Assembly: GCF_963676685.1 (NCBI RefSeq)
Contig: NC_092346.1
Coordinates: forward strand, 18,848,001 to 18,912,000
Length of the DNA stretch: 64,000 bases
Origin: Mytilus edulis
Taxonomy: Eukaryota
Direction: 5' to 3'
How positions within the stretch are numbered: the stretch's first letter is position 1; the number at the start of each line of letters is the position of its first letter. This document shows, piece by piece, positions 19,770-64,000 of the stretch. Made by a program: the position numbers and the translations under genes. Under the pieces are notes generated by a model. It searched no databases, had not been told where the DNA came from, and saw nothing but the letters and a program-made list of their open reading frames with translations.

Positions 19770-20948
19770 CTATAAACTACCAACACTATGAGGTGCATAT
19801 GTTTTGTAATAGCCATTATTGTCCGGTCCTGGCATATGTGATAAGTCTTTAGACATTGGCGGTAGCGCCATAGCATGGGGATTGTAACCTCCGTATCCCT
19901 GCATTTCGTACATTTTCATGTCCATTTTGGCACTGTCTGTGATTAAACTATTTATAGAGAACGGATGATTAAATGAGTGAGGATGATTTAAGTGTCCGGC
20001 GGGATGACCAGCGGGATGATTGTACCCCTGCGAAACTATATCATGCTGCATATGTCGAATGTTCGGGGTCATATCGTGGCGTTCATGTTGCTGGATTGGT
20101 GTTGGCGCACTGTGTTCATTACTTAATGGTTCCGATTTAGTTTCGGGAATCTCATGTCCTGACGGCACGTGATTTTGTGGTGGTGGTGGTGGCGGTGATG
20201 GGGAACATCCATCTCTACTGTCGGGTGACTTACAACTATCATCGTCATCTCCGGAACATGACTGCCTCATCATTTCTTTCTTTACACATTTGAAGCGTTT
20301 CTGTCGTCGTAGGTAACATCCATTTTCGAACATATTACCTGAGTCGGGATGAAGAGCCCAGTAGCTGCCTTTTCCAGGACGGTCGGGTGTTCTCGGAACT
20401 TTAACAAAACAGTCATTAAAAGATAAACTATGTCTGATAGAATTCTGCCATCTCTGTTGATTCTGACGGTAAAACGGAAATAAGTCCATAATAAACTGGT
20501 ATATTTCACTAAGCGTACACATTTTGTTCGGTGACTGTTGAATAGCCATAGTGATAAGTGATATGTAAGAATATGGCGGCTTTGCATGTGTATAACTTCT
20601 ACGATACGTTTTGTCCCGTGCCCTGTTAATAGCCTGGGCCCTGTTAAACGATTCCATTCTCATAGGGCTCGACATGCCATTCATTGGTGGTAGACTTCCC
20701 ATTCCGTTAACTGAAGCTATTGAATTCATAGAATTCATACCGGGTGGCATGGATGCTGCATGCATACCCATACCCATGCTGGACATTGCTTGTGGCGGCA
20801 TACCTCCCATGTTCGGAGGAGAATAGTTCATATTGCTCATAGCCATAGATCCCATAGACATTGTCCCATAACTGTTCATATTCGGCATTGATGTCATAGT
20901 ATATCCACTGCTGCAACTGGGGTCGTATGGAGACTTAGTTGACAACAT
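19770..20948 (-). CDS. FoxA: Forkhead box protein A (FoxA/HNF3/fork head), single coding exon, 392 aa from the ATG at 20948 (MLSTKSPYD...)
   Basis: Complete FoxA-type forkhead domain [104 protein letters not shown], Met/Ser/Gly-rich N-terminus, and C-terminal HPFSINSL (eh1-like region II). The ORF track starts at a non-ATG codon at 21026. The start at 20948 is preferred on similarity to invertebrate FoxA N-termini; an upstream in-frame ATG (MYEKQ, 20999) is also possible. Confidence 0.97.
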
Positions 20949-21029
20949 TGTCAAATAGTCTCCCGACTGCGGGCAATCCAAACTTTGTTTCTCGTACATA
21001 ATTACCAACAAATAGTTGTAAAACACTCT

Positions 21030-21185
21030 TGGTTATATCTGTAAACTGAATTGACCCTGGGTAAATATACCTGGTTCTAGTCAAATTTCTACAACGCCCA
21101 CTTATGCAAATTAGTTGATAAGTGTCAACTGTTATAGAGGAACGTTATAAGCCCCGCCCACTTATTGAACTCAATATTGGTTCTT
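21030..21185 (-). promoter_or_regulatory. Putative FoxA proximal promoter
   Basis: Directly upstream of the CDS: forkhead-type GTAAATA (21061-21067), octamer ATGCAAAT (21104-21111), CGCCCACTTAT repeated exactly 60 bp apart (21095-21105, 21155-21165), GC box GCCCCGCCC (21151-21159), GATAA (21117-21121), and CCAAT on the minus strand (21176-21180). Confidence 0.55.
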
Positions 21186-31084: not shown

Positions 31085-32138
31085 ATGACAGAAAAGTAAG
31101 TTATATTTTAGCTTTGTAATTCAATTATTTTTCTTAAAATCATTCTAATAATGAATTTATATTGTTTAAATGTGTATTAACTTTGTGATATAAACATATT
31201 TCTGAAGAAGGAAAAAGAGATTAAAGTATAAAGCATGATATATGGAGATACAACATTTTAAAACTTTCTTTTTTCAAGTTAATTTGGAGATACAACATTT
31301 TAAGACTTCCTTTTTTCAAGTTAATTTGGAGATACATCATTATAATCTTTTTTCTTGCACAAAAACACCAATTAAGAAATGATTATACATTTTGATCATT
31401 TACAGGGATGACTGTCATTTGCTGCCAATCTTGAACCTACCCGACGTTCCTCTGATAAGGATATTTTTCTTCTTAGATCTAGAAGATCTCGTGCTTGTAG
31501 TAAATAGGGTTTGTAAAAGATTTTACCACCTAATTAAATCAACACCTGTCTTGTGGAGAGTATTTGAATTTTATTGGCCTCAAGTTATAAAAGAAGAAGA
31601 CTTACCCTACATATTTAGACACTCAAAGAGCTTCAGAGTTTTCAATATTGGATATTGTACCTACTCAGGCCGTCTGTCTGTGTTTGATTATAGTTTCATT
31701 TCAAGTTTGAGCTGTGCAAGAAAACTCACATGGTTGAATTTAACTAGAACTTCAATATCAAGCACATGCTTTTTACAGTACCTTCCAAATCTTGAAATTC
31801 TTGATCTTTCAGAGTGTGAAAATCTGATTGACTGTGATTTTCATGTAGTATCTCAGTGTCATAAACTTCAAAACTTATATCTTTCGTTTGATAAAGTAAA
31901 CCCAAAGACAATCAAAGATATTGTTTCCTGTATACCTCAATTAGAAATTCTAGATATAAGTGGTATATTTTTGAAATTTTTTGAAGTGACATCAATTCTT
32001 GATCAGTGTTACTGGACACTTATGTCTATATACCTTAGTGTTGATTCATCTGTGAATGAAGAGGACTTACACAGGGAGATACACTTTAATTACACAGACC
32101 TTTCCTATCACATATATACACCAATATTTAATAATTAA
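31085..32138 (+). CDS. F-box/leucine-rich-repeat protein (FBXL-like), spliced: exon 1 31085..31095, exon 2 31406..32138, 247 aa
   Basis: F-box LNLPDVPLIRIFFFLDLEDLVLVVNRVCKRFYHLIKSTPVLWR followed by LRRs (LTWLNLTRTSI, LPNLEILDLSECENL, LQNLYLSFDKV, IPQLEILDISGI). ATG ACA GAA AA|gtaagt (donor 31096) joins in frame to tttacag|G GAT GAC (acceptor 31405), giving MTEKDDCHLLPILNLP. An in-frame TGA precedes this ATG. Confidence 0.85.
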
Positions 32139-32140
32139 CA

Positions 32141-34345
32141 ATGGATCCTAATAACTATAATATTGAGGAGATTTGTACAGTATCCAATGATCAAGAATTA
32201 GCTTCTATAATTCAAAACACTGATGACAATTGTACTATTATAATAGTCGATGAAAATAACAATTTTCAGTTTACAGATTCAACTGTAAACAATATATTTG
32301 AAACCAATTTAAATGAAAGTTTTGATTTAAATGAGGAACATAGCACGGAACATATTTATGCAAATGTACAGATTCTAAATCCTACAACCAGTTCTACATG
32401 TTCTAATGAATTGCAAAATGATTCAACTGATAATTTTATATATACTGGAGTAGCATTACCTAATGAAAACAAAACCATAGCTTCAAGAAATGCGGAAGAA
32501 ATTGATGAAGACCCAAGTCATCAAGGTGAAGGTAATGGCAATAATACAACAAGGAAACAAAATGTAAAAAATACAGAAGAGCAAAATGAAGACACAATAG
32601 AAGAACAAAACGTAGAGACAAATGAAAATGATGAAACGATGAGGGGTAGAAAAAGGAAAAGACAATCGGAATTATGGAAACAAAATCTAAGGAAAAGAAG
32701 ACGGCAGTCGGGTATGGAATATGTAAATACTAGAGGTAAAACACAGCGAAAGAGAGAAGTTAAACAAGGAACAAAGGACTGTAAAGGTGGATGCAGGTTT
32801 AAATGCAGTAAAAATATATCAGAAACAGAAAGGAACGCGATTTTTAAAACTTTTTGGTCATATAGCGATTCTGAAAAAAATGCATTTTATGGAAATAATA
32901 TTGAAAAGTTAAAGAAAGAAAGGAAGCGAACAAACAAAGAAATTTCAAGAAAACAATTTACATATAAATATCATTTACCTAAGGAGTGTAGTAAACTCCG
33001 TATTTGTAAAGAGTTTTTTCTTTCAACCTTAGATATAAGTGGCCGTAGGATTCAATGGTTTTTTGATAAAAAGTCTCCACAGTTTGAGGACAAAAGGGGA
33101 AGACATGTTAAGAGGAAAATATCAGATGAGTCTAAAGATAGAATCAGAAACCATATCAATTCATTTCCTCGAATGGACTCCCACTATTGTAGGTCTTCTG
33201 TAAAAAGACAATATCTTGATCCTTGTTTGTCGATAGCAAAAATGTATGAGCTTTATGTTTTAACATGTAATACAACAGATGTTACTCCAGAAAAATATCA
33301 TACATACAAAAACATATTTAATTTTGAATTTAATTTGGGTTTCCACACTCCCAAGAAAGACAGATGTGACCATTGTGAGGAGTACAAATCCAATAAATTG
33401 ATCAATCAAGTTGGTGAAGATTTGAAAATGAAGTATGAACTACACATAGCTGGAAAATCTAATACCAAAGTGGAAAGAGATAACGACAGAAGTTCCGACA
33501 AGGCAGTTCTTTGCTTTGACATGGAAAATGTTATAACCTGTCCAAGGGCAAATATTTCAATTTTTTTTTACAAAAGAAAATTGAATGTGTTCAACTTAAC
33601 TGGACATTTCTCGTTAAATAAATGTGCTTATAATGCAATTTGGCCAGAACATATAGCAGGCAGAGGTGCCAATGAAATTTCGAGTGCCTTATTAAAAATT
33701 TTAGAAAAAGTGCTAGAAGATTTTCCTTCTTTAGAAACCATAACGTTATGGTCGGACTCTTGCATACCCCAGAATCGTAACTCTATAGTTATTAGTGCAC
33801 TGCAGCATTTTATGAGAAGTGACAGATCATATTCACTTAAGTCTGTAGAACAAAAATTTTCTGAGCCAGGCCACTCGTCTATTCAAGAGGTTGACTGTGT
33901 ACACAGTCACATTGAGAAAGCATTGAATCTCAGCGAGATTTTTAGTCCTGTCAGTTTTTTGCGAATTCTGACAAAAGTTCGTAAAAGATCAATGAAAGTG
34001 ATTCAATTACAGCCTGAACACTTCTTTGATTTTCAGACAGCTAGTCGGACATTTAAATATAACTCTGTGCCCTTTACTAAGATTAAGTATTTAAAGTTAG
34101 AAGTTGAGAAGCCGTTACACGTTTTGTATAAGGTATCATTTTCTGATGAGAGTTTCAAAGAGGTTTCCATTGTTGTACAGAATACAAGAAAAAAACAGAA
34201 AACTGTTGTCATGCCAAAAGTTAATATGTTGACCAAATCAAACTTGTTGTCAAAAGAAAAAGTCAAAGATTTGAAAGATATGTTAAAGTATATGCCCCTT
34301 GATGACAGAAAGTATTATGAGACAGTTTTCAAGAGTTACAAGTAA
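32141..34345 (+). CDS. Sola1-like DDD transposase, 734 aa
   Basis: Motifs HINSFPRMDSHYCR, FNLGFHTPKKDRCDHC, CFDMENV (first Asp), YKRKLNVFNL, GRGANEISS, WSDSCIPQNRN (second Asp), GHSSIQEVDCVHSHIEK (third Asp). Acidic/Asn-rich N-terminus, basic NLS-like stretch RGRKRKR. Lies between the TIRs. Confidence 0.88.
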   Translation: MDPNNYNIEEICTVSNDQELASIIQNTDDNCTIIIVDENNNFQFTDSTVNNIFETNLNESFDLNEEHSTEHIYANVQILNPTTSSTCSNELQNDSTDNFIYTGVALPNENKTIASRNAEEIDEDPSHQGEGNGNNTTRKQNVKNTEEQNEDTIEEQNVETNENDETMRGRKRKRQSELWKQNLRKRRRQSGMEYVNTRGKTQRKREVKQGTKDCKGGCRFKCSKNISETERNAIFKTFWSYSDSEKNAFYGNNIEKLKKERKRTNKEISRKQFTYKYHLPKECSKLRICKEFFLSTLDISGRRIQWFFDKKSPQFEDKRGRHVKRKISDESKDRIRNHINSFPRMDSHYCRSSVKRQYLDPCLSIAKMYELYVLTCNTTDVTPEKYHTYKNIFNFEFNLGFHTPKKDRCDHCEEYKSNKLINQVGEDLKMKYELHIAGKSNTKVERDNDRSSDKAVLCFDMENVITCPRANISIFFYKRKLNVFNLTGHFSLNKCAYNAIWPEHIAGRGANEISSALLKILEKVLEDFPSLETITLWSDSCIPQNRNSIVISALQHFMRSDRSYSLKSVEQKFSEPGHSSIQEVDCVHSHIEKALNLSEIFSPVSFLRILTKVRKRSMKVIQLQPEHFFDFQTASRTFKYNSVPFTKIKYLKLEVEKPLHVLYKVSFSDESFKEVSIVVQNTRKKQKTVVMPKVNMLTKSNLLSKEKVKDLKDMLKYMPLDDRKYYETVFKSYK

Positions 34346-42530: not shown

Positions 42531-43358
42531 TTATATTATTTGTTTGTGCGTTCTCTGAGATGAATGTTCTTGAGTGTGTTTTTGGTGTATTTCTGTCACG
42601 TAGTGTGCCATTTTAGCGACATTTCTTAACAATATCATCAAGCAGGAGGTTTGGTTAGCGATTAAACCTGGTCCAACCCATCATTTTGTTCTTAAAATGA
42701 CCTGTACCAAGTCAGAAATATGGCAGTTGTTATCTAATAGGTTGTTTCTATATATATATATATATATATGCTGGTTTTTGTTTTTGTTGCACTCCAGTGT
42801 TCCTGTTGTTCTTTGTTTTCCTCTTACAGTTGATGAGTTTCCCTCGGTTTTAGTTTGTAATCGGATTTGTTTTCTATTAATCGATTTATGACTTTTGAGC
42901 ACCGGTATGCAGCTGTAGCCTTGGCTGTAGAGAGATATAAGAACCCCTTGAAACATATCATTTTCTAATGTTTCAGTTTTATTTACATCATTTCAATAAA
43001 AGGTAGATTAAGAAATTTCGTATGATATTATTTTAAAATGTATACAGAAACGTTTCTGCATAATAAAGAATTTAATATATTTTTTTTTATATCAGGTCAG
43101 GGTATTTGTAAGCAAGATACAAGTTATAAAATGTACATTCCATTAAAAAAAATATACATGGTATGCTCAACAATGGAAGTTTGTTATGAGAAAGTAGAAA
43201 TCGTTTCCTTTGTCGTATGTTTCAATTTCCCCATTCTGTAACAATACAGTTTCATGTGCAAAACAGACATTTGACGATTTTTATAAGCCTTATACAGCCT
43301 TTTATATATAGCTGACTATGTGGTATGGGCTTTGCTAATTGCTGACCAATAGCTGTTA

Positions 43359-43798
43359 GAATGAAATTCAAAACAGTGTGGCTGTGGCCATTGATTGACA
43401 CATTAAATTCATCCATTGACTGGGACAATTTAGGTGAACGTTTGTATGTAACGACCACTGCTCACTATGTACTTTTAAAGACACTTAAACTATGGGGTCA
43501 CCAAAGGTTCTCAACACCTTAATAAAGTAATTCGAAAAATTAATCAGAAATAACACGATGTTTTGATTTATATGAATTATAAATCAAAACATAAAGGTTA
43601 TTCCTGATTAATTTTTCGAATTATTTTATAATTAAAGGCGTTAAGAAACCTTTGGTGACCCCACAGTTTAAATGTCTATCGTAGGTACGTCGTGAACAAT
43701 GGTCGTTACAGACAAACGTTCACGTAAACTGTCCCAGTCAATGGATGAATTTAATGTGTCAATCAATGGCCACAGCCATACTGTTTTGAATTTCATTC
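43359..43798. mobile_element. Fold-back MITE, nearly palindromic over its length, TA-flanked
   Basis: ~105-bp TIR GAATGAAATTCAAAACAGT(G/A)TGGCTGTGGCCATTGATTGACAC..., inner inverted repeat GGGGTCACCAAAGGTT...AACCTTTGGTGACCCC, TA at 43357-43358 and 43799-43800. Confidence 0.9.
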
Positions 43799-44813
43799 TA
43801 TTTCTGTGTCATTTTGTCTCATGTGGAGAGTTGTCCCATTGGCAACGATATCCCTTTCTTTTTACATTTCAATATGTTCAATAAAGTGAAAATCAAACGC
43901 ACATGGTGTGCTTGGAGCAAGTCAGGTTATTTGAACCGTGTGTTGTTTGTTGTTGTCTACCTTTGCTTCTGTGTAAAATTAAGAAGATGTGATACGATAT
44001 GAAAAAACATATTTACATGCACCAGAGACCAAATGAGGCAGTAGTTAAGTAATTGTAGGTACCGTAAGACCTTCAACAATGATCAATACCCGTACCGATT
44101 ATAATAATTCAGCGGTTGTTGCTACATATTTTTTTATTGTTGTTTTGTACATAAATCAAGCCGTTAGGTTTCTTGTTTGAATTGTATTACCGTGATTTGT
44201 CATTTTTGCATTTTATGGCTTGCTATGTTGTATTAGTTTTGCTCACAATTGAGGACCATACGGTGACATTCAAAAGTTTAGGAAAACCTGGCATTCTACG
44301 TTGATTGTTCTCTGAGGGAGAGGTGTATCATTGGCAATCATACCACATCTTATTTTCATAGTGGCATATTAGAATGTTAGTGTCAAGCTATCTTGGCAGT
44401 GTTTGTAGTTTTGCATTAAATGTTTTAAGATATTTGAAGCCCTAATTGAAAATCGTAACACAAAATTCCCTAAAAATATACGAAGACTAAATGCATCACG
44501 AAAATGTATATAAAGAATATTATAAGGTAGATTTATAATACCATTAGATTATCGAATTCAAGTGGCCGAACTGAATAATTCTATTTAAGTAACTGTGAAC
44601 ACATATTATTCCATATTGGTATTATTTTAGTAGGTTTCTCTATATGAATTGGATTTTGAATAAAAAAGTATATTCACCTGAGAAAGTGTTATTCACCGCG
44701 CTAAACGTCACGCGCTTTTACATGCAACGTTATGGTAAAATGTTTCATCTAAAAAAAAAAATGGTATATGTTTGTCATTAGATACATTTTCTTCTCTCGG
44801 ACTATGGAATACA

Positions 44814-52654: not shown

Positions 52655-53005
52655 TTATAAGTATATATTACACATAAAATTCATAAGTTTTGATTTAGAT
52701 AAACGGTTACAAAAAGATATTGATTCACAGAATTTTTTTTTATTTGATGGAGGAGCAATCTTGATTTTTGATGCAAATCATATCTTTTTCTAATTTCCCG
52801 TAATCGAGTGGCACAGTGCCTTCTTCGAAGAATAATACACCTATCACACGATAATAACCCTAGTCACCGGAAAATGTGAAATTAATCTGCTGTTCTTTTT
52901 TAAACTGTCATTAGAACAAAGAGCAGAAGCAGCTTAAGATTTTTCATTTTTGTTTTATATATATTTCTTGATTGTATTATTATGATTCATTGATATATCT
53001 AAATG

Positions 53006-53448
53006 GAATGAAATTCAAAACAGTGTGGCTGTGGCCATTGATTGACACATTAAATTCATCCATTGACTGGGACAATTTACGTGAACGTTTGTCTGTAACG
53101 ACCACTGATCACGACGTACCTACGATAGACATTTAAACTGTGGGGTCACCAAAGGTTTCTTAACGCCTTTAATTATAAAATAATTCGAAAAATTAATCAG
53201 GAAGAACCTTTATGTTTTGATTTATATAATTGATATAAATCAAAACATCGTGTTATTTCTGATTAATTTTTCGAATTACTTTATTAAGGTATGGAGAACC
53301 TTTGGTGACCCCATAGTTTAAGTGTCTTTAAAAAGTACATAGTGAGCAGTGGTCGTTACATACAAACGTTCACCTAAATTGTCCCAGTCAATGGATGAAT
53401 TTAATGTGTCAATCAATGGCCACAGCCACACTATTATGAATTTCATTC
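53006..53448. mobile_element. Second copy of the fold-back MITE, opposite orientation
   Basis: Near-identical reverse complement of 43359-43798 with unrelated flanks. Confidence 0.9.
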
Positions 53449-54849
53449 TAAAGGTAAGTGTAGTATACCGCTGTTCGAAAGTCATAAATATGTATATATA
53501 AAACACCATTTCATTGAGGAGGAACAGTACTTTATTTCACTAGTTTTAAAAGAAAAACTAAATTTATAATGCATACATGCATTATAAATAAACATTGCAA
53601 ATTTTAATATTAATTATGTAAAATTGTAAATGTGTCTTTAAAGACTTTCAGAAATATTTTTACGACTGATGCATATATTACAAATGTTTTCATTGTTTTA
53701 TTTGCTATTTTCTGTGAATCGTATTATATAGTATATACAACAAACGAATGTTTGTATGTGTTGAACTCAATTTTATTTGATTTTATCATATTATCATATC
53801 ATAAAATTGAAAACACTTGTTCTCGATCGAGCTTTTTTTCTGTTTTGAAGTAAAAGTGATATTCGCTATTTTTCATACAACCTCTTGGTTAGTCCTAAAG
53901 GTAAAGACTTGTCACTTTACTATTATTCATACTCTATACATGACCTGTCAACACTCTTTGCACTTACTTTCAAATACAGAGTATCTTTCAAAGAATTAGG
54001 CCTTATTCCTTAATATCACGGGCTGGTCCTCCATGACCTGCTATAGTCTTTTCCTGAACACCAATCAAATATTTCCATTTTCGGTTAAATTGTATTGTTT
54101 GGTCTGACTTTCTGAAGTAGACACAGGAGTTTTCATATCCATGTGCCCTCACCGGTAACCACTTCTTGCTGATTTTTTTTCATTTTTTTAAGTATTCAAA
54201 TTAGAAAAACTTGATCAAAATTATTTGAAATTTTGATTTGTTAAAACCACACCTCCAAGACAAAAAGAAAATACATGTGTAATCAGCGTATTTTATATAT
54301 ATATCTTTATTGTTCATGGCTTATGTGAAATAAAACGGATCATACATTTGTCAAGCTTTGATGTAATACACATATATGCACTCTTGTCTAGACTTTATAA
54401 TGTTATAAGAAACAATTACATGTAGCACACGACTTCCTGGTAGAGTTGTTAAATATACTTGTAAAAGTCAAATGTCAAAGTGGATACCGTATATTAATTT
54501 TATGTAAAAGTATATATCAATATATAGGACCATGCGTATTTGATATCAAGGAAAATATGATTTTGAAGAAGCTTTCATTCATGCTTTGGTATTTGTAACA
54601 CTTATGTCTACTAGTATATTGTTAAAAATCTTGGAACACAATCGGGAGTTCTGACAATTAACTTTTATATACTTTTAAATGTCAATATTATTGTTATGCA
54701 AATAATGTATGCAAAATTCATTCTGTAATATATATTAAAATTTTTTTTTAAAAGCCTTTTATATCTTTTATATTATGTTATAGTATACGTACACGGTAAA
54801 TAACTATAAATAAACTCATCATATATACCAGGATCGAAATTATGAATTT

Positions 54850-54893
54850 GCGCCAGACGCGCGTTTCGTCTGAACAAGACTCATCAGTGATGC
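54850..54893 (-). ncRNA. Minimal type-I hammerhead ribozyme, family 1 (intact core)
   Basis: Minus strand reads GCAUCA CUGAUGA GUCU UGUUC AGAC GAAA CGCGCG UC UGGCGC. Confidence 0.8.
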
Positions 54894-54904
54894 TCGAATC
54901 TAAA

Positions 54905-55369
54905 AGGTATAGAACCACTAATTCTGGCCCGGTCTGAAAGAACATACAAGAAAGTAGTACATATTTAAAACAAAATAGTTCCTACACTTAGCTGTAACTT
55001 TTTAAATTTGTAAAATATTTTGGCAATTTCGGTATCAAATGAAAGGTGAATGACTGTGGATCATTGTAGAACCTTTGTTGAATGATTATATTAAAAAATA
55101 AAAAAGTTGTATGAAATTGAAACATGAGGGCCTTTATTGCTCAGATCTGAAGTACCTGTTTTAGTACTTTCGAACTTCGGGGAACCAGTGCATCCTTATA
55201 TGCAATTAAAGGTATGATGATTTTTCCAGCATGGGTTACCAAAAGGTAATGTTTTGACATGGAATGAGTGTCACTTCCTTTGAACTTAAAACGAAAGAGC
55301 TATGAAAGCTTAAAATCAAGGAATTTAACATAGAAAGCAATGGGACAATAAATTAGTGGTTTTATTCCT
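54905..55369. mobile_element. MITE inserted in a retrozyme-like repeat
   Basis: Imperfect TIRs AGGTATAGAACCACTAATT / AATTAGTGGTTTTATTCCT. The host repeat resumes collinearly after it. Confidence 0.72.
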
Positions 55370-55734
55370 AAAAAAGTTCAAAAGGCCAAATAAGAAGTTG
55401 AATAGCATTGAGGACCAAAATTTTCTTAAATTTTTGCTAAATGCAGCTATGGTTATCTATTCCTGCAGTAGAAAATTCTTAGTATTTGAAAAATTAAATG
55501 TTTGTAAACATTTAATATCCATGATAATTCATGTCAACATAGAAGGGCTGACTACTGGGCTGGTGATACCATATAACAGGACTGAAAATCATGTAAATTT
55601 GATTATTCGTTCCATAATTTTAACTTTTTGATGAGGATTTTCCTTTGACACCATCTTACTGTGTTATATTTACACAACTCGTTTGCTGTGACCGTGTAAG
55701 TTGTGACGTTTCAAATTCTAACGGACGTAATCTA

Positions 55735-55950
55735 TGTTTAGTTTTAGTTTCTTGTGTATAATTCGGAGTTTAGTATGACGTCCATTATCACTGTACTATT
55801 ATGCATATTTTAGGGGCCAGCTGAAGGACACCTACGGGTGCGGGAATTCTCGCTACATTGAAGACCCATTGGTTGCCTTCGGCTGTTGTTTGCTCTGTGG
55901 TCGGGTGGTTGTCGCTTTGACATATTCACCATTTCCTTTCTCAATTTTAT
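55735..55950 (+). repeat. Short interspersed repeat ending TTTGACATATTC(A/C)CCATTTC..TTCTCAATTT
   Basis: The 3' ~65 bp recurs at 16014-16077. Confidence 0.55.
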
Positions 55951-56647
55951 TTACTGGTAAATAAGTAAGTCAGGGATTTTGTTATCACAAATGACTCAAA
56001 ACCTATACTATTCTTCCATAGATATAACGATTTGGTTTTGAAGTTCGGTTATTTATACCTGAAGATAACTTATTTTAAACGGGATAATACATCCTTATGT
56101 TTAGGAAGATGTTGTTTACCGAGCACGCAAATTAAGAAAAGATCCTGGTAAAATTATCGATCTTATAAATAAACTTCTTCTAAAAGTCTATCAATTCAAC
56201 ACTGTAATTAGATTTTGAAGATTGTGTTAATTGGTATTAATACTGATTTCGTTATCAGTAAATTTAAAGCAAACTAAATATTAATTTTTATATACATATC
56301 CACTTTTATGGATCAACAATGTGTTGATACCTGGATCTTGGCATTGCTTTGACTTTTTATAACGTCTTTCCGCTAAATCCGCTGGATGTTGTACTGATTG
56401 AAACTTAAGTCTTAGATGCATGCTTTGTTTTTTGTTGTTTCGGCATTGAAATAGCTGCCTGTAACTGCGAGTACTCTGAGATCTGTACTTAGTGTCTTTT
56501 TGAAGTTTAGATGTATAAGTACTCGGTCACATTCACTTTCAGTTTGTTGTTATGTTTTTCCGCTACACCACTGTCTCAGGTTAGGGAAGGGTGGTGAACC
56601 CGCTTACATTCTGAATGTATATGACTGCCCTAAGTCATCAGCCTGTA

Positions 56648-56785
56648 AGCTCATCAACTTCAAACTTCATTTGGCCTTTTTAACTTTTTTGGATTCGAGC
56701 GTCACTGATGAGTCTTTTATAGACGAAACGCGCGTCTGGCGTATGTACCAAATTTAGTCCTTGTATGTATGATGAGTTTATTTAG
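56648..56785 (+). mobile_element. Retrozyme-like repeat, family 1, partial
   Basis: Reverse complement of 57678-57815; contains the hammerhead at 56699. Confidence 0.75.
56699..56742 (+). ncRNA. Minimal type-I hammerhead ribozyme, family 1 (intact core)
   Basis: GCGUCA CUGAUGA GUCU UUUAU AGAC GAAA CGCGCG UC|UGGCGU. Stem I GCGUCA/UGGCGU, stem II GUCU/AGAC, palindromic stem III ACGCGCGU, predicted cleavage after 56736. Confidence 0.88.
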
Positions 56786-57035
56786 TGGCTTTCGTTTGTT
56801 TCTGTGTTTCATATTTGTTTTTTGTTTATTATTTGTACATTAATTTGACCGTTAGTTTTCACGTATGAAATATTTTACATTTGTAATTTGAGGACCTTTT
56901 ATAGCAAAACATGGGGTATGGGCTGTGTTCATTGTTGAAGGTCTTACGGTGAACTATTGCTGTTAAGTTCTTTGTTATTTAGTCCCGTTTGAAGAGATGT
57001 CTCATTGGCAAGAATACCACATCTTCTTTTTTTAT
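56786..57035 (+). repeat. Interspersed repeat family ending CATTGGCA...TACCACATCTTC
   Basis: Related copies at 43255-43865 (split by a MITE), 44110-44360, 47390-47590, 48380-48630, 48880-49120, and reverse fragments at 43980-44100 and 48284-48360. Confidence 0.65.
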
Positions 57036-57283
57036 ATATCTCATTAAGAAATTAAAAAGTGACCGTAACAATAGACATATACCGTAAAGCGGGTTATATT
57101 TGCGGGGTGTTTATTTTAGCTTATATTGGCGGGTATATGGGAATCGCGATATTGAATTCCGCGAAAATTTTTGAAATCATGTACACATTCCTGTAATATC
57201 CTAGAATTTCTACATATCAATTATAAAATAAAGACGAAAGTAGTTTACAATAGTTATCAAAGGTACCAGGTTTATAATTCAAT

Positions 57284-57327
57284 ACACCAGATGCGCGTTT
57301 CGTCTACATAAGACTCACCAGTGACGC
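57284..57327 (-). ncRNA. Degenerate hammerhead motif, family 1
   Basis: Same layout but the core reads CUGGUGA instead of CUGAUGA and stem III is mismatched; probably inactive. Confidence 0.6.
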
Positions 57328-57718
57328 TCAGATCAAACTAGTTGTAAAGCCAAACAAGTACAAAGTTCAAGAGCATTGAGGACAAAAAATTTCAAAAAAA
57401 TTCTACCAAATACGGCTAAGGTAATCTTATCCTGGGATAAGAAAATCCTTAGTTTTTCGAAAAATTCAGAGTTTTTTAACAGGAAATTTTTAGAAAATGA
57501 CCATGTTATTGATATTCATGTCAACACCAGTGTTGCAATCTTGTAGATCGATGAAGAAAAGACAAATCAAGGTAAAAAAACATAATATAAATGAATTCCA
57601 TGAATTCGAAAAAAGAGCGGGACCATGCTCATCGACATTTAAACCGTCTCCCGACATGCAAAAATGACGCACCCTATGAATAAACTCATCATAGATACCA
57701 GGACTAAATTTTGTATAA

Positions 57719-57762
57719 ACGCCAGACGCGCGTTTCGTCTACAAAAGACTCATCAGTGACGC
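57719..57762 (-). ncRNA. Minimal type-I hammerhead ribozyme, family 1 (intact core)
   Basis: Minus strand reads GCGUCA CUGAUGA GUCU UUUGU AGAC GAAA CGCGCG UC UGGCGU. Confidence 0.88.
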
Positions 57763-58387
57763 TCGAATCCAAAAAAGTTAAAAAAAGCCAAATAAAGTAC
57801 GAAGTTGAAGAGCAATAAGGACCAAAATTCCTAAAAGTTATGCCAAATAAAGCTAAGGTAACCTATGCCTGAGGACGAAAAGCCTTAGTTTTTCAAAAAT
57901 TCAAAATTTTGTAAACAGTTAATTTATAAATATAACCATATCAATGATAATTCATGTCAGAACAAAAAGTGCTTACTACTGGGCTTGTTTAATCAATAAA
58001 AATGTCACAATTGGAAAAGCCACAGTTGGTAGATAACAGATTATAGGGTTTTCTGGTATCTAAAAAGTAAACTACACAAAAAAACCGAACTTCGAGGAAA
58101 TTCAAATCGAGAAGTCACTTACAAAATGGCAAAACCAAAAGCTCAAACAATCAAATGAATGCAAAACAACTGTCATATAGCTGACACGGGACAGGCATTT
58201 CCTTATGTAGAAAACAGTGGATATAATTGGTTTTCATAGATAGCTCACTTGTATGACAGCTGCATGAAATTCCTGATCTAAGATTCTGACAACATATCAC
58301 GACTTAGGTGAGACACAGATATATCGTATAGATCAACCCATTTGTTTTTGTTCATGCAATGTCAATTTCACACGTTCTTTTGACTCG

Positions 58388-58662
58388 AGTTATCATTGAT
58401 ATTTTCATAATTATAAGTTAACTGTTAACAAAACATTGAAATTTAAAAAAAAACTAATGTTTCTACCTCAGGAATATATTACCTTAGCTGTATTTGGCAA
58501 AACTTTTAGGAATTTTTTATCCTCAATGCTCTTCAACTTTGTACTTTATTTGGTCCAATAAACATTTTTTGATTCGAACGTCACTGATGAGTCTTTTGGA
58601 GACGAAACGCGCGTCTGGCGTAAATATAAAATTTTAATCCTGGTATCTATGATGAGTTTATT
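58388..58662 (+). mobile_element. Retrozyme-like repeat, family 1
   Basis: Reverse complement of the 57678-57987 unit; contains the hammerhead at 58578. Confidence 0.75.
58578..58621 (+). ncRNA. Minimal type-I hammerhead ribozyme, family 1 (intact core)
   Basis: ACGUCA CUGAUGA GUCU UUUGG AGAC GAAA CGCGCG UC UGGCGU. Confidence 0.88.
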
Positions 58663-58911
58663 ATTATAGACAAAGCATAACCCTGACAAATTTTTTCGAT
58701 TTTTATGTACTGAGGACTTAAATTGCCAGTTTAAAGATATTTTCAAGTTTAATCTTTTGTATGTAACGAAGACCAAAAGTATAAACTAAGGTTGACATTC
58801 ATATTCATAGTAAACTAAATAATAGCTTCGGTCGTCAATAAGTTAAGACTTGCTTGTATTAAAGAAAACCACTAACCAACAAAAACGTGTTTTCATGTTT
58901 ATTTGTGATAA

Positions 58912-59208
58912 TTAACACTCAACAGCAAGACACGGATTTTTCTTCAATATTTCATCATAATAAGTTTTCTTAGGAATACAGTTGACATCACTTTTAGTAC
59001 CATATCTTTTGATTGCGACCTTAGTCTTTCCATTGACATCGACTGCATCAATTCGCACTGCATTTCCCACCGACATGCCAGGACTCTCATCAAAGTAATT
59101 AAACGGTATTAAGAATGTACTGTGCGATTGCCCAGGTGTATGTGTGACAGGTAAGTCCTCTTTCTGTACAACATGATGCATACCCATTGTAACCCACGCA
59201 ACAAGATC
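58912..59208 (-). CDS. Copper-containing amine oxidase, terminal exon
   Basis: tattttacag|GAT acceptor, phase 0, continuing NENIVDK|DLVAWVTMGMHHVVQKEDLPVT...LIPFNYFDESP (third Cu-ligand His). AATAAA on the minus strand at 58903-58898 just after the stop. Confidence 0.92.
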   Translation of the reverse strand, partial: DLVAWVTMGMHHVVQKEDLPVTHTPGQSHSTFLIPFNYFDESPGMSVGNAVRIDAVDVNGKTKVAIKRYGTKSDVNCIPKKTYYDEILKKNPCLAVEC

Positions 59209-59649
59209 CTGTAAAATAGACATTTAGGTTTTTATTAGAAACATTTGAGGAAAATACTGACGAGTGAAAGATTTTAGCTTTATCAATAAAATTAAGGCGA
59301 AGATACCACGCTAATATTCCCAAATCAAAAATTGACAACGCCTCAGAAAAAGAAAAACAACGAACACGACGAAAAACTTCCACAAAACACTAAACAGAAA
59401 AATCAAGATTTGACAATAAGTGATCACACAGGTTATATATAAGACAACATTTCAGTGGTTCTCTTTTTATGATGTCTCTTTGGTACCTCATAAAATAAAC
59501 TACAAATTATATATTTGTTTTTAACATTGTCTCGGACATGTACATGAACGTTAAAAACCAAATATTTGAAAGCGATGAATGTATATAAACATTGAAATAG
59601 TGAAGCGCTGAATGAGTAAAAAGAACCACAGTATTTTAAACTTATTTAC

Positions 59650-61595
59650 CTTGTCTACAATATTCTCATTGTCATCAATAAATTCTTGAAAAGAAAATAC
59701 AGGATTATCTGAGTGGGTATATACTGAGCTGGAATATGGCTCACTGTCCTTATATTTTGTGACTGCTAGTTGGTACTGGGACCAGCTCACAGCTGGGTTA
59801 TTTCCGTCTTTTGGTGGTCTCATAAACTTAGTCATCCCTTTATTTATCAATTTGTAACCAGGGGAGTTTCCAAATTTATCTTTTTTGTTATTGTTTACAA
59901 AAGTCAGTACTTTCGGATAATCGAAGTTGAACTTATAGGCCGCCTCAAGTTCCGTCTGTTTCAATCTTTTTATGAATCTATTTTGAACAATTGTAGAACC
60001 TGGTTTTTTGTGACATACGTTTTCCACAATATCCGGTTCTATGTCGACAGTTTGAAATCTGTTGCTTGTACCTTTGATATCAAGGTCAATTTTGAAATTA
60101 AACAAATGCTGGTGTAATGGCGACATCAGATTTTTATCAACTTGAAAACTGTACGGGTTGTCATGTGTATTCCATGAACTTGTCACTATTCCAGTTGGTG
60201 TTATTTTAACTTCTATGGCGCCATTTTGATAAAATATAAAATCAATGATATAGTCATAAATGTCAATCGTAGGAATGGTTCTGACGATCAAAACTACATT
60301 TGCAACTCCTTCATAAAATCGATGGATATATCGAAAGTAACCGTTATGGCGACGGAGTGGCATTCCAGTATTGTGCTCAAATATACAGAATGCACGCTCA
60401 TTAGTCAAAGGTTCATCTTGTGTGTCAACCTTAAAAGATGAACTTATAAAAGTGGCATCATTTGGACAATCAACACAAGGATGTAAATATTTTGCCCTCG
60501 AACCAATCTTATACATAGAGTCTAAGTAATTAAGTACATGTTCCTGTGGCTTATCTCCGGAATAAAAATTGGCTAGTTCTTGCAGGCTTATTTCATAAGC
60601 AATACGGTCACCTTTGTAGCGAATATCATATAGCCGTGGTCCGTAGAATACAGACATCCCGATATTAAATTCCCAGTACGAATATGACACGTGTCTGTCG
60701 TTGATATTGTAACGTACACCATCTGGAGATACTTGTGATGGGTCTTTTAGAGGTATTTTAAACGATGGTTCGCCTCTAGAACTGATAGTCTTGTTGTTTT
60801 TCTCAGCGTTTGTTGGAAAGGGAATTTTATTGATATATTCCTTGTATGTATTATAGTATGGAACTATTTCCTCCAGGCTATTAAACAATAATCCATTAAA
60901 CCAAATCTTGATTATAGTATTATTACCGTTATTATCTACTTCTCGGAGTACTGCAAAATCTATGGGCCGTAATAAGAAATATTCTGTGAATTGATACAAC
61001 CAACTAAACCACAAACGTTTCCTGACACCAGACAATGGAGTCGTCAATTGGCTGTTGAGATTAAAAACCAAACAGCGATCACCACAGTTGACCAAACGAC
61101 CACCATATAATTCATTTAGTATTTTTCCTACAACTTTATCAATTTGTTCTAGCAATGGCGTGAGATTGTAATCAAAAACGTCAATAGGACGATCAATAAA
61201 TGGAATAGATTTTGGTAGGTAAGGAACATGCCGATAACCAGTCGGGTTTGGTAAAGGACTCACAATAATCTCTATAACATCTGGAGTGGAGATACCGCCT
61301 CGAAGAATCATTACACGGGCTTCACGTTTAGGCTGAACACAATGTGTATCTAAATGTTTCAATACGTCTCTTTTTGGTGGCAAAAATATTTCAGAACTGA
61401 AAATATAGTTTGAATTAATTGCTGCTTTATCTGCGGTTGTAAGGTTTAAATCTGAACGGTTATAAAGGTAATCAAGAATTCCCGCAATTTCCTTTTTCGT
61501 TAAATCACGAAATACAGATGGTTTACTACTTTCCCTCAAGTTAACATTACCATACAATCTTGATTTCCGAGTACACACTAGAATGTTTTTCTTTG
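59650..61595 (-). CDS. Copper-containing amine oxidase (AOC/diamine-oxidase-like), large internal exon
   Basis: VFRDLTKKEI, RIAYEISLQE, catalytic Asp in NYLDS, CIFEHNTGMPLRRH, TPQ region TIDIYDYIIDFIFYQNGAIEV, Cu-ligand HQH. Acceptor ttttttaacag| at 61596, donor AAG|gtaaat at 59649. The upstream exon(s) carrying the start codon and signal/anchor were not identified. Confidence 0.92.
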
Positions 61596-63142
61596 CTGTT
61601 AAAAAAGAGAAAACTATGATAAAGATCAGAAACATTTACAATTTGGGGTCAAATAGTAACAGAAATGTATTTCAAAATTTCCGATTCATATGAGTTATAA
61701 CCATGGAATATGTAACAACTAAGACATTTTTTCTCATATGCATTTCAATTCCATTTGCATGGAGTTTCATTCCACAAATGAAAAAAATTTGTTATATGAA
61801 AAACGATGATTGATCATGGAGTCGAGATCATAAAACATTTTTTTAATATATCGATAAGTTCAAATTGTTGTTTGAGTCCTAATCATTAGTGTTAAGGAGG
61901 ATCAGATGTATCTTTCCTTTAACAAATAGCAGAACACAATCGGTTTTGATCTTTAATAAAATATACAAGTTTTGAGACAGGAGCGAAATTCATTTGCAAG
62001 TCGTTTCTTTAAGATGACGAAAATCATATATTATGTCCCATTTTTTCGACTTTTAAACAAAAAATACCTAACATTATTTTTATTCATTTTATTTTTCAAC
62101 TTTGCCGTTTAGAAATGTGTTCTAGGTAATTTTCTTTTTTTTCTGTATTTACATCATAAAAATTATCTTTTCATTCAGTTTTCTGTTAATCAAATACTAT
62201 TCGTTTTTCCATGTATAATATTAACAAAATTTTACACACAACCTGCAGCTAACAAAACCTCCATGATTGTTGCTATTTATCATATTTTTGAAAAAAGCAA
62301 AAATGGGTTTGAACATTAATAGCTAAATAAACTTAAGACCAGCTTTGCCTGTGAAAGTTGGAATTCAAGCTTCTTTTTTTTTTTTTTTTATACTAAAAGG
62401 CTTATGCAACAAGCGTATACTCCTTACTGAAATACTAAGTTTAAATTTAAAATTTCCATCCTAAAATGTTTGATGAGTTGTTTTTCATCTTCTTGTTATT
62501 TTTAATAAAAATTGAACTAAATTTTACTCTTCTACGTCTAAAAGTGCTCTAAATCAATTTTGGCACACTTAATAATTACGATGCAAAAGAAGATACTATA
62601 ATGTTTCACAATTGTTGTGACAGAGGGTAATTTGTTGTTATTGTATTCTGTATACCATTGTATTCACAAAGGTTATCGGAATAAACTTATTTTATCTATC
62701 ACTTGACGTTCGCAGGTAGGTGCATACATTTATTTGCTCTTCAAAAGTAAAGTACATTTGTACTTGCCTGACTTGGACATCCATTTGTAAAATAGATGGT
62801 TACATTTCCTTCCATTTCCCTGAAAAAAATATTTGAATCATTTATTTTATATAAATGTTTTCATTGATCATCCGAATGCTTTATCCATTTACTTAATTAA
62901 TCCTCGCTTTCACTTTTGTTCTATGATCAGTGTTATAAAACAGCAGAAAAAGGATTAAAACACCAAGCATTTTGTTGTTTATGTTGTCTGATATCACACG
63001 AATAATGGTGACTTGTTTGTACTTGTTTTTAATAGAATTAAAGTGGTACCTTGCAGGTCATGGATAATTTTCGATTATTAATTTTAACAAAAATGTTAGT
63101 GGGTGTATATTGTTATCAAATGTACCAGGATTATAATTTAAT

Positions 63143-63186
63143 ACGTCAAACGCGCGTTTCGTCTACATAAGACCCATCAGTGACGC
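63143..63186 (-). ncRNA. Hammerhead motif, family 1, core variant
   Basis: Minus strand reads GCGUCA CUGAUGG GUCU UAUGU AGAC GAAA CGCGCG UU UGACGU. The last core A is G, so activity is likely impaired. Confidence 0.65.
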
Positions 63187-63350
63187 TTAGATCAAAATAG
63201 TTATAAATCCAAACAAGTACAAAGTTGAAGAGCATTGAGGACCCAAAATTCCAAAAGAAATTGTGCAAATACAGCTAAGATAATCTTTGCCTGAGATAAG
63301 ACAATCCTTACTTTTTTTCGAATAATTTAAAGTTTTGTAAAAGGAAATTC

Positions 63351-63630
63351 ATGAATTTGACCTACCGAATTAGACTATTTACCGGATTTGTAATCACATA
63401 AGCAACACGACGGGTGCCGCATGTGGAGCAGGATCTGCTTACCCTTCCGGAGCACCTGAGATCACCCCTAGTTTTTGGTGGGGTTCGTGTTGTTTATTCT
63501 TTAGTTTTCTATGTTGTGTCATGTGTACTATTGTTTTTCTGTTTGTCTTTTTCATTTTTAGCCATGGCGTTGTCAGTTTGTTTTAGATTTATGAGTTTGA
63601 CTGTCCCTTTGGTATCTTTCGTCCCTCTTT
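63351..63630 (+). repeat. Interspersed repeat, probably a retroelement 3' end or SINE-like
   Basis: GC-richer head (GGGTGCCGCATGTGGAGCAGGATCTGCTTACCCTTCCGGAGCACCTGAG) and T-rich tail. Clearly inserted into another repeat. Weakly related fragments near 7460-7525 and 39655-39710. Confidence 0.55.
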
Positions 63631-63712
63631 TATAAAAATGACCATACAATTGATATATATGTCAACAACGAAGTGCTGACTACTGTGCTGGTGTTACCCT
63701 CGGGGATGAAAC

Positions 63713-64000
63713 CACGAGCATCACTGAAGAGACATGTATTGTCGAAATGCGCATCTGGTGCAAGAAAATTAGTACCGTTAATTTTATTACTACCACTGGG
63801 TCGATGCCTCTGCTGGTGGACTATTAGTCCCCGAGGGTATCACCACCCCAGTAGTCAGTACTTCGGTACTGGCATGAAAATACGGATTTTTTGTGCTATT
63901 AAAATTTACTGTTACAAAATGATAGAAATTATTATAAATTAAGGAATGTATCTCCCTCATGCAAAGCTCTGATTCCTTTCACGGATTTGGCTATACTTTT
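63713..64000 (+). mobile_element. Retrozyme-like repeat, family 2 (runs off the window)
   Basis: Begins with the family-2 hammerhead and shares a ~40-nt block with family 1. Confidence 0.65.
63718..63761 (+). ncRNA. Minimal type-I hammerhead ribozyme, family 2
   Basis: GCAUCA CUGAAGA GACA UGUAU UGUC GAAA UGCGCA UC|UGGUGC. All three stems differ from family 1 in a way that preserves pairing; stem III palindrome is AUGCGCAU. Confidence 0.85.

What the first reader, a model, noticed from the sequence alone, without database searches (positions are those of the whole stretch)
54829..64000. Cluster of seven minimal hammerhead ribozyme motifs in retrozyme-like repeats
Seen: seven CUGANGA...GAAA...UH motifs or core variants with stems I and II within 9 kb, on both strands; five have intact cores. 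Stem III is a short palindrome (ACGCGCGU or AUGCGCAU). Established: such minimal type-I hammerheads occur in Penelope-like elements and non-LTR retrozymes, are thought to cleave as dimers, and can yield circular RNAs; similar elements are known from mussels, so the class itself is not new. None was found in the first 54 kb, so the local density is notable.
Basis: partly seen in the sequence, partly recalled or inferred. Interest (0 to 1): 0.7.

Follow-up and report, generated by a model that had tools for sequence, protein, structure and literature searches.

The report
Mussel retrozymes riding Naiad retrotransposons
The seven self-cutting RNA motifs are mostly clipped copies of a very common, already described kind of mussel repeat, but the repeat shares a predicted RNA hairpin and its end point with Naiad jumping genes (a piece of one sits inside this cluster), which likely names the enzyme that spreads it.

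Summary
All seven hammerhead motifs are real: five have intact cores, two carry core mutations. They are canonical type I hammerheads, not PLE 'minimal' ones. They belong to three related 350-368-bp non-LTR retrozyme families with about 19,700 exact cores in this 1.37-Gb genome, fitting the published Mytilus retrozymes. Six are lone truncated or broken copies; only H7 opens a young trimer that could release unit circles. The density is high but not unique. All lie outside the neighbouring amine oxidase mRNA.

Terminal copies end at a fixed point, about 34-46 nt past the cut site and a few bases before a bulged hairpin. The same hairpin follows the 3' end of three Naiad (Penelope-like) families (8 of 22 pairs covary). 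A 99.6%-identical Naiad 3' end and the trimer are both nested in retrozyme H6 and absent from a paralogous empty site. Naiad reverse transcriptase likely binds the hairpin and copies circular (or uncleaved multimeric) retrozyme RNA.

This scan noted the Naiad link before on other DNA; I took the lead from those notes and re-tested it. I found it in no paper searched. No cleavage, circle or binding was shown here.

The parts
54804..54905 (-). H1: 3' piece of an A1 retrozyme; intact-core hammerhead 54850-54893, one helix I mismatch
55370..55570 (-). Upstream piece of an A1 retrozyme, probably the rest of H1, separated from it by about 465 bp with no match among the loci held
   Evidence: assignment to H1 inferred from collinear monomer coordinates
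56649..56784 (+). H2: 5'-truncated A1 copy (about 0.35 unit), intact hammerhead 56699-56742
57250..57535 (-). H3: 5'-truncated A2 copy; hammerhead 57284-57327 with A6>G and helix III mismatch, predicted inactive
57679..57988 (-). H4: 5'-truncated A1 copy (about 0.83 unit), intact hammerhead 57719-57762
58061..58273 (-). Old 3'-end fragment of a Naiad family-1-like element (74% identity) between the divergent H4 and H5 copies
58376..58662 (+). H5: 5'-truncated A1 copy (about 0.8 unit), intact hammerhead 58578-58621; also present in the duplicated gene copy about 14 kb downstream
58885..62811 (-). Copper amine oxidase gene (PF01179, PF02727); spliced contig covers 58885-59207, 59649-61595 and a short first exon from about 62768; contains no hammerhead
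   Evidence: the contig's run is RNA by guess; upstream end approximate
63109..63347 (-). H6: 3' part of a 1.1-unit A2 copy; hammerhead 63143-63186 with A9>G and GUU, predicted weak or dead
63348..63632 (+). 5'-truncated 3' end of a young Naiad family-3 retrotransposon (284 of 285 identical), inserted into H6, absent from the paralogous site
63629..63712 (-). Middle part of the H6 host copy (its 5' part resumes at about 64487-64556, beyond the window)
63713..64000 (+). H7: young family-B array (2.2 units of 350 bp, three intact hammerheads, runs to about 64486), inserted into H6 without a target duplication
63795..63852 (+). Conserved bulged hairpin shared by retrozyme families A1, A2, B and Naiad families 1-3; likely RT docking and start signal

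Best explanation
The seven motifs are the hammerheads of independent insertions of three related mussel-type non-LTR retrozyme families that are likely copied into the genome by Naiad retrotransposon enzymes. Proposed cycle: (1) Tandem arrays such as H7 are transcribed (family-level sense RNA running round the unit: shown; this locus: not shown). (2) The hammerheads would cut out 350-368-nt monomers that a host ligase closes into circles (published for M. galloprovincialis; inferred here). (3) Naiad RT/GIY-YIG protein would bind the bulged hairpin, nick AT-rich DNA and start reverse transcription a few bases 5' of the hairpin (fixed ends and shared hairpin: shown; binding: inferred, by analogy with internal initiation by a Poseidon PLE). 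(4) The hammerhead lies only 34-46 nt from that start, so nearly every copy keeps it however truncated; longer runs pass the hairpin and cut site and give arrays. The cluster is a pile-up of such copies of different ages beside a tandemly duplicated amine oxidase gene, with no sign of joint function. My odds: retrozyme identity 0.95, Naiad as helper 0.75, circle rather than uncut multimer as main template 0.6.
For: Copy number: 15,117 exact A cores and 4,601 exact B cores, reversed-pattern controls 0. Tandem periods 350-368 bp, GC 36-37%, homologous monomers. Fixed 3' ends: of 50 loci, 35 were terminal; B 14 of 14 at +32 to +38, A1 6 of 6 at +46 to +50, A2 12 of 15 at +39 to +43 (others +23, +30, +33). 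No 5' stop, read by eye from the first 100 listed matches of each search: 0 of 100 B and 0 of 100 A2 start within 3 nt of the cut; 1 of 100 starts at the hairpin. Naiad identity: N-terminal GIY-YIG, CxC, DKA, RT. The hairpin is upstream of the ORF in 23 of 30 family-1 loci (scores 44-52, shuffle maximum 36), 5 of 6 family-3 loci and 3 of 4 family-2 loci printed. In family-3 partial tandems it follows the 3' end directly. All 100 listed of 7,856 family-3 ends leave the unit within 5 nt of that point; the filter excluded read-through copies. Covariation over 4 retrozyme and 3 Naiad rows: 97.4% paired, 8 of 22 pairs changed on both sides, 0 of 500 shuffles as high. Nested Naiad end and B trimer absent from the paralogue. 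Units within arrays differ less than between arrays: A2 1.7% vs 5.9%, B 0.5% vs 3.5%. RNA: 5,595-9,648 reads per run on one A2 unit; reads returning to the unit start are 594/62, 718/89 and 1290/79 sense/antisense.
Against: No experiment. Reads that go round the unit fit uncut multimers as well as circles, and no molecule ends pile up at the cut site. A Poseidon PLE RT uses unprocessed RNA and needs no hammerhead cleavage in vitro (PMC11167929). The hammerhead fold is predicted 8-9 kcal/mol above the ensemble in the monomers. Shared sequence could reflect ancestry rather than present use. Covariation was counted on 7 related rows with a structure drawn from them. Naiads are said to prefer (TA)n targets (PMC8557442), yet few retrozyme or family-3 flanks are (TA)n. 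Target duplications are mostly at chance level: 5 of 41 reach 7 bp against 2.5% in controls. Identity with the published M. galloprovincialis clones could not be checked (supplement unreadable). The raw-read runs carry another organism code than the best DNA holder, and strand direction is assumed.
Confidence: 0.72

Rival explanations
1. Same helper and hairpin, but the template is uncut linear multimeric RNA from existing arrays; the hammerhead and circles are by-products or hitch-hikers.
For: Internal initiation on unprocessed RNA is shown for a Poseidon PLE, and hammerhead mutants insert normally (PMC11167929, main-text passages and part 2 read). No ends at the cut site in three RNA runs. 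Hammerhead fold disfavoured by 8-9 kcal/mol.
Against: Arrays are internally uniform yet differ from one another (the H7 units differ at 1 of 350), as expected if each is copied round one circle, though uniform parents or gene conversion could do the same. Mussel retrozyme RNA is mostly circular (PMC7229834). Hammerhead helices covary between families.
Confidence: 0.25
2. The helper is a hammerhead-bearing C-terminal-endonuclease PLE (Penelope, Neptune or similar), as proposed for vertebrate retrozymes; the Naiad hairpin is only a relic.
For: Xenopus retrozymes group with pLTRs of PLEs (bioRxiv 10.64898/2026.07.22.740005, parts 1-3 of 5 read). This genome holds many such PLEs with long ORFs.
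Against: In 45 GIY-YIG loci or stretches no PLE end resembled the retrozyme monomers; hits were to separate retrozyme-type copies nearby. Apart from a retrozyme-containing locus and one unrelated chance hit (L112), only the Naiad matched the hairpin. Their hammerheads are of the minimal type. The sample was the top 30 of 150 scored hits plus 15 chosen stretches.
Confidence: 0.12
3. The cluster is a targeted hotspot: the Naiad endonuclease prefers to insert into or beside earlier retrozyme or Naiad copies.
For: Two young insertions lie inside H6 and a Naiad remnant between H4 and H5. Five exact-core insertions in 8.9 kb are expected 0.08 times per genome under Poisson; insertions cluster in the sample (21 vs 11.6 neighbour pairs, p=0.0005).
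Against: By eye only a few of 100 listed Naiad ends run into retrozyme or Naiad sequence. The whole duplicated-gene region is rich (11 more motifs in the next 59 kb against 1 in the 95 kb before), and duplication itself copied H5 and H6, which fits relaxed selection. This rival concerns density only and can hold together with the best explanation.
Confidence: 0.15
4. The cluster is a co-opted regulatory array: neighbouring hammerheads pair as dimers, cut the amine oxidase mRNA, or excise long antisense circles (for example H5 to H7).
For: Both strands carry intact ribozymes flanking the gene. H5 and H6 persist in a duplicated gene copy. Palindromic stem III allows dimers.
Against: The spliced contig ends at 58885, just past an AATAAA and about 260 nt short of H5, and begins about 300 nt from H6. 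Two raw RNA runs show almost no reads on either strand of the unique gene body. H3, H6 and both paralogous motifs are decaying.
Confidence: 0.03

Closest known systems
Non-LTR retrozymes of Mytilus galloprovincialis (Cervera and de la Pena 2020, PMC7229834; parts 1-4 of 6 read, supplement unreadable)
   Same: Type I hammerhead in about 350-390-bp low-GC repeats, two similar ribozyme families, thousands of copies, abundant RNA.
   Different: About 19,700 exact cores here against about 5,000 reported from an older assembly. In the parts read the paper gives no fixed 3' end, conserved hairpin or specific helper; the follow-up review (PMC7761336, passages) says no conserved motif points to the helper. 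Sequence identity to their clones not checked.
Naiad clade of Penelope-like elements (PMC8557442; section 6 and passages read)
   Same: 5' truncation, partial tandems, N-terminal GIY-YIG, CxC, DKA in the parent of the 63348-63632 insert; shared hairpin at the unit boundary (shown here).
   Different: Naiads encode protein and lack canonical hammerheads; the retrozymes are non-coding, carry a hammerhead and share only the roughly 60-nt hairpin with them.
Poseidon PAc internal initiation (PMC11167929; passages and part 2 of the main text read)
   Same: Reverse transcription starts inside the RNA, upstream of a protein-binding region, at AT-rich nicks.
   Different: Another PLE clade, autonomous, two start sites in an AC-rich stem-loop; no test with retrozymes or circles in the parts read.
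Minimal PLE hammerheads (PMC4209133; parts 1-2 of 4 read)
   Same: Type I topology, palindromic positions after GAAA, possible dimer activity.
   Different: Those lack helix III and have a long helix II with an unpaired base after position 9; the window motifs have the canonical 6/4/2-bp helices.

Membership tests
Type I hammerhead ribozyme | Core CUGANGA, GAAA, NUH | tested here: met
   5 of 7 intact; H3 and H6 mutated
Type I hammerhead ribozyme | Three helices, open helix I, supported by covariation | tested here: met
   97.8% paired, 4 of 13 pairs covary; RF00163 hits for 4 of 7
Type I hammerhead ribozyme | Self-cleavage after NUH | not testable with these tools
   No read ends pile up at the site; published for a mussel repeat (PMC7229834)
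Minimal PLE hammerhead (min-HHR) | No helix III, 7-8-bp helix II, unpaired base between 9 and 10.1 | tested here: not met
   Helix II 4 bp, no unpaired base, helix III present; PLE-type examples from this genome differ
Metazoan non-LTR retrozyme | 150-450-bp tandem units, one type I hammerhead each | tested here: met
   H7 trimer with 350-bp period; family arrays up to at least 13 units; six window copies are single
Metazoan non-LTR retrozyme | Non-coding, GC under 50% | tested here: met
   GC 36-37%; only chance frames of 100-113 codons overlap the copies; PBS and PPT not searched
Metazoan non-LTR retrozyme | Expressed as unit-length circular RNA | tested here: inconclusive
   Sense-biased reads run round the unit, but multimers give the same reads
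Metazoan non-LTR retrozyme | Target duplications longer than 4 bp when present | tested here: inconclusive
   5 of 41 reach 7-8 bp vs 2.5% in control; none at the B trimer's empty site
M. galloprovincialis retrozyme families | Sequence identity to the cloned circRNAs | not testable with these tools
   Supplement unreadable; GenBank not available
Naiad (parent of the 63348-63632 insert) | N-terminal GIY-YIG, CxC, DKA, C-terminal RT | tested here: met
   family 3 has only a weak RVT_1 Pfam hit, and its EN is 61% identical to the family-1 GIY-YIG region
Naiad (parent of the 63348-63632 insert) | Partial tandems, 5' truncation, no canonical hammerhead | tested here: met
   Tandems L182-L184; no hammerhead hit in family-1 locus L130; family-3 3' UTR checked by eye only
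Naiad-dependent non-autonomous element | Helper protein binds and copies the element's RNA | not testable with these tools
   Inferred from the shared hairpin and matching end point

The most novel reading that the evidence does not exclude
Mussel retrozymes are circular-RNA parasites built from two unrelated modules: the reverse-transcription start hairpin of hammerhead-less Naiad retrotransposons and a canonical hammerhead. The roughly 60-nt hairpin is a portable signal that makes Naiad RT/endonuclease start rolling-circle copying of any RNA circle at a defined base and insert it into DNA. This would identify the helper of animal retrozymes and the cis-signal of Naiads.
Probability: 0.5. Interest if true: 0.78.

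Novelty: new variant of a known kind. Interest (0 to 1): 0.55.

Why it matters
The hammerheads and their clustering are ordinary. What matters is the helper question: the 2020 review states that animal retrozymes show no conserved motif pointing to their autonomous partner. A covarying hairpin shared with three Naiad families, lying right behind the fixed end of both element types, makes that directly testable with one protein and one RNA. It would define the Naiad initiation signal, explain why a bivalve genome is strewn with lone intact-looking hammerheads (they sit next to the copying start, so no selection at each locus is needed), and suggest an RNA-circle-templated insertion system. This window adds a site where host retrozyme, helper fragment and a young array are nested and can be ordered in time against an empty paralogue.

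Tried and rejected
Cleavage of the amine oxidase mRNA or a long antisense circle: rejected; the motifs are outside the spliced contig and the unique region has almost no raw reads. An apparent pile-up of RNA ends at 63102 vanished on an intact A2 unit, so it was an edge artefact. Linear monomer cut at the hammerhead, or a SINE-like unit with a hard 5' end, as template: not supported by the 5' ends. Local duplication as the source of all seven: flanks are unrelated; duplication explains only the copies of H5 and H6 beyond the window. Link to hammerhead-bearing PLE ends: none found in 45 loci. Minimum-energy folding of the isolated motifs does not give the hammerhead fold (z -1.4 to +0.7) and is uninformative. 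The miRNA hits are far below gathering scores and fall on palindromic repeats. No tRNA. One row of alignment A3 was mis-addressed and was replaced in A4. My first flank scan skipped matches and was redone. No RNA holder on record was listed among indexed runs. Literature: 'Naiad + retrozyme' gave 2 distinct papers; 'Naiad + non-autonomous + Penelope-like + bivalve' gave 0; 'Naiad / reverse transcription initiation / Penelope' gave 11 listed. None reports the shared hairpin in what I read. Subscription papers, the Lunse 2017 paper (not held; title only seen) and the supplements of PMC7229834, PMC8557442 and the 2026 preprint were not seen and may bear on novelty.


Full report
OBSERVATION. H1, H2, H4, H5 and H7 have intact cores; H3 has A6>G with a helix III mismatch, H6 has A9>G and GUU. 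A structural descriptor found five intact hits and none in 20 shuffles. Rfam RF00163 scores four of them, one above gathering. Helix I is 6 bp, helix II 4 bp with a 5-nt loop, helix III 2 bp with a palindromic tetraloop; 97.8% of cells pair, and H7 supplies four double changes. This is the canonical metazoan type I shape in PMC4209133 (parts 1-2 of 4 read), not the minimal PLE shape, which this genome's own PLEs do show.

WHAT THEY BELONG TO. The genome (1.37 Gb) holds 15,117 exact family-A cores and 4,601 family-B cores. Natural arrays give three homologous monomers: A1 about 368, A2 about 355-359 and B 350 bp, all 36-37% GC. This fits the Mytilus galloprovincialis retrozymes: about 5,000 hammerheads in two families in 350-390-bp repeats, about 0.1/min cleavage of one repeat, abundant circles (PMC7229834, parts 1-4 of 6 read). 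That the organism is a Mytilus-type mussel is my inference; I could not compare sequences. In the window H1, H2, H4 and H5 are lone A1 fragments and H3 a lone A2 fragment. H6 is a 1.1-unit A2 copy. H7 opens a B array with three hammerheads, 63713 to about 64486. Only that array could release unit monomers.

CONTEXT. A copper amine oxidase gene lies on the minus strand. A spliced contig from a presumed RNA run spans 58885 to about 62811, so every hammerhead is outside it. The gene is duplicated about 14 kb further on together with H5 and H6, and a third paralogue follows. In the duplicate H6 is uninterrupted, giving an empty site: two later insertions, 63348-63628 and the B array, are missing there, and the array has no target duplication.

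DENSITY. In the first 9.5 Mb of contig C1 the 137 listed exact cores collapse to 114 insertions. Neighbours within 8.9 kb are more frequent than random (21 vs 11.6, p=0.0005), and one place holds seven exact cores in four insertions. The window's five exact-core insertions in 8.9 kb exceed that sample's maximum of four and are expected 0.08 times per genome under Poisson, so the density is real and in the tail. The empty first 54.8 kb is ordinary (39% of gaps are longer). The richness continues through the duplicated-gene region: 11 motifs with up to 4 mismatches in the next 59 kb, 1 in the 95 kb before. Relaxed selection plus duplication and nesting is the simplest account (inference).

ENDS. 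Of 50 loci, 15 were internal units and 35 terminal. Terminal copies stop at +32 to +38 (B, 14 of 14), +46 to +50 (A1, 6 of 6) and +39 to +43 (A2, 12 of 15) past the cut site; chance matches lengthen some by a few bases. 5' ends are scattered. Reading by eye the first 100 listed matches of three anchored searches (649, 1,842 and 4,774 in all), none of 200 copies starts at the cut site and 1 of 100 at the unit boundary. The template is therefore longer than one unit or circular, and copying starts at one internal point. Clear target duplications are rare: 5 of 41 reach 7-8 bp against 2.5% in mismatched controls.

THE NAIAD LINK. I had the fixed end before looking at earlier notes; the idea that the following hairpin is shared with Naiads came from those notes, which report it on other DNA of this and other genomes. 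I tested it. A 1,053-residue frame with N-terminal GIY-YIG, CxC and DKA, the marks given in PMC8557442 (section 6 read), has the motif upstream; so do 23 of 30 loci of that family, at scores 44-52 against a shuffle maximum of 36. Two more families (61-68% identical in the endonuclease region) carry it: 5 of 6 family-3 loci and 3 of 4 family-2 loci printed. In family-3 partial tandems the hairpin starts a few bases after the point where terminal copies stop. All 100 listed of 7,856 terminal ends leave the unit within 5 nt of that point; my filter excluded read-through copies. On four retrozyme and three Naiad rows the 22-pair bulged hairpin is 97.4% paired with 8 pairs changed on both sides, 0 of 500 shuffles as high and slid controls at 36-53%; the rows are few and related, and the structure was drawn from them. 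The insert at 63348-63632 is the 3' end of family 3 (284 of 285 identical), and 58061-58273 is an older family-1-like end. So helper fragment, host retrozyme and young array are nested at one site. Nesting shows shared activity in time and place, not dependence. Among 45 other GIY-YIG loci no PLE end matched the monomers.

RNA. On one A2 unit, three raw RNA runs laid 5,595 of 8,710,588, 6,390 of 8,252,136 and 9,648 of 7,335,232 reads. They are biased to the ribozyme strand if the usual library direction holds, 4-7-fold over the hairpin, and many return to the unit start. No ends gather at the cut site. These are family-wide reads from runs under another organism code and cannot tell circles from multimers. 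Units within arrays differ less than units between arrays (A2 1.7 vs 5.9%, four arrays; B 0.5 vs 3.5%, five arrays), which favours copying round one circle but does not prove it.

MECHANISM. Shown: motifs, families, fixed ends, shared covarying hairpin, nesting, family-level transcription. From papers: cleavage and circles in mussel (PMC7229834); internal initiation at AT-rich nicks by a Poseidon PLE, on unprocessed RNA and without need of hammerhead cleavage (PMC11167929, passages and part 2 of the main text read). Inferred: Naiad protein binds the hairpin and starts just 5' of it; circles are the main template. Dimer cleavage is thermodynamically possible, but the review says most invertebrate motifs cleave as monomers (PMC7761336, passages read).

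NOVELTY AND VERDICT. The elements are of a known kind and the cluster has no sign of function. The helper link is not in the papers I could search. The review says no conserved motif points to the helper, and a 2026 preprint (parts 1-3 of 5 read) ties vertebrate retrozymes to PLE pseudo-LTRs without this hairpin. Unseen supplements and subscription papers could change this. Verdict: new variant of a known kind, interest 0.55, nearly all of it from the testable Naiad link.

Noticed in passing
window 59551-61635(-); paralogues in L052 and L053: All three amine oxidase paralogues have Ile instead of Asn before the presumed cofactor Tyr (T-I-D/G-I-Y-D; the usual T-x-x-N-Y-D motif is recalled), while the H-x-H and third His are kept. 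Possibly altered cofactor formation.
   Followed up: partly
window 31383-34345(+): An F-box/LRR frame (PF12937) abuts a 736-codon frame with no Pfam hit that looks, from memory, like a Sola-type DDE transposase: possible captured F-box gene in a DNA transposon.
   Followed up: no
window 19770-21032(-): Intronless FoxA (HNF3) gene; the 95 kb around it holds only one retrozyme motif.
   Followed up: partly
window 43356-43803 and 53001-53451: 450-bp palindromic elements, 97% identical to each other and to copies 21-28 kb upstream of the window: a young MITE-like family.
   Followed up: no
L123, L126, L133: A further hammerhead family related to B with different palindromic stem III (CUAG, CCGG and CUGG loops) and a different 3' tail.
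   Followed up: no
L092:1356-1392: A small-RNA run shows sense reads of about 31-36 nt over the 5' half of the hammerhead, ending 13 nt before the cut site; piRNA-like or decay.
   Followed up: no
window 55700-55960 and 56780-57060: Two more high-copy, heavily transcribed repeats with fairly fixed right ends sit inside the cluster; their parents were not identified.
   Followed up: partly
L013 monomer (family A2): The hairpin's terminal loop region is complementary to the GACGAAAC segment of the A2 hammerhead and could block it; not seen in family B (read).
   Followed up: no
L106-L124, L125-L128: Several young C-terminal-endonuclease PLE families end in (TA)n and carry hammerhead-like cores with departures from CUGANGA.
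   Followed up: no
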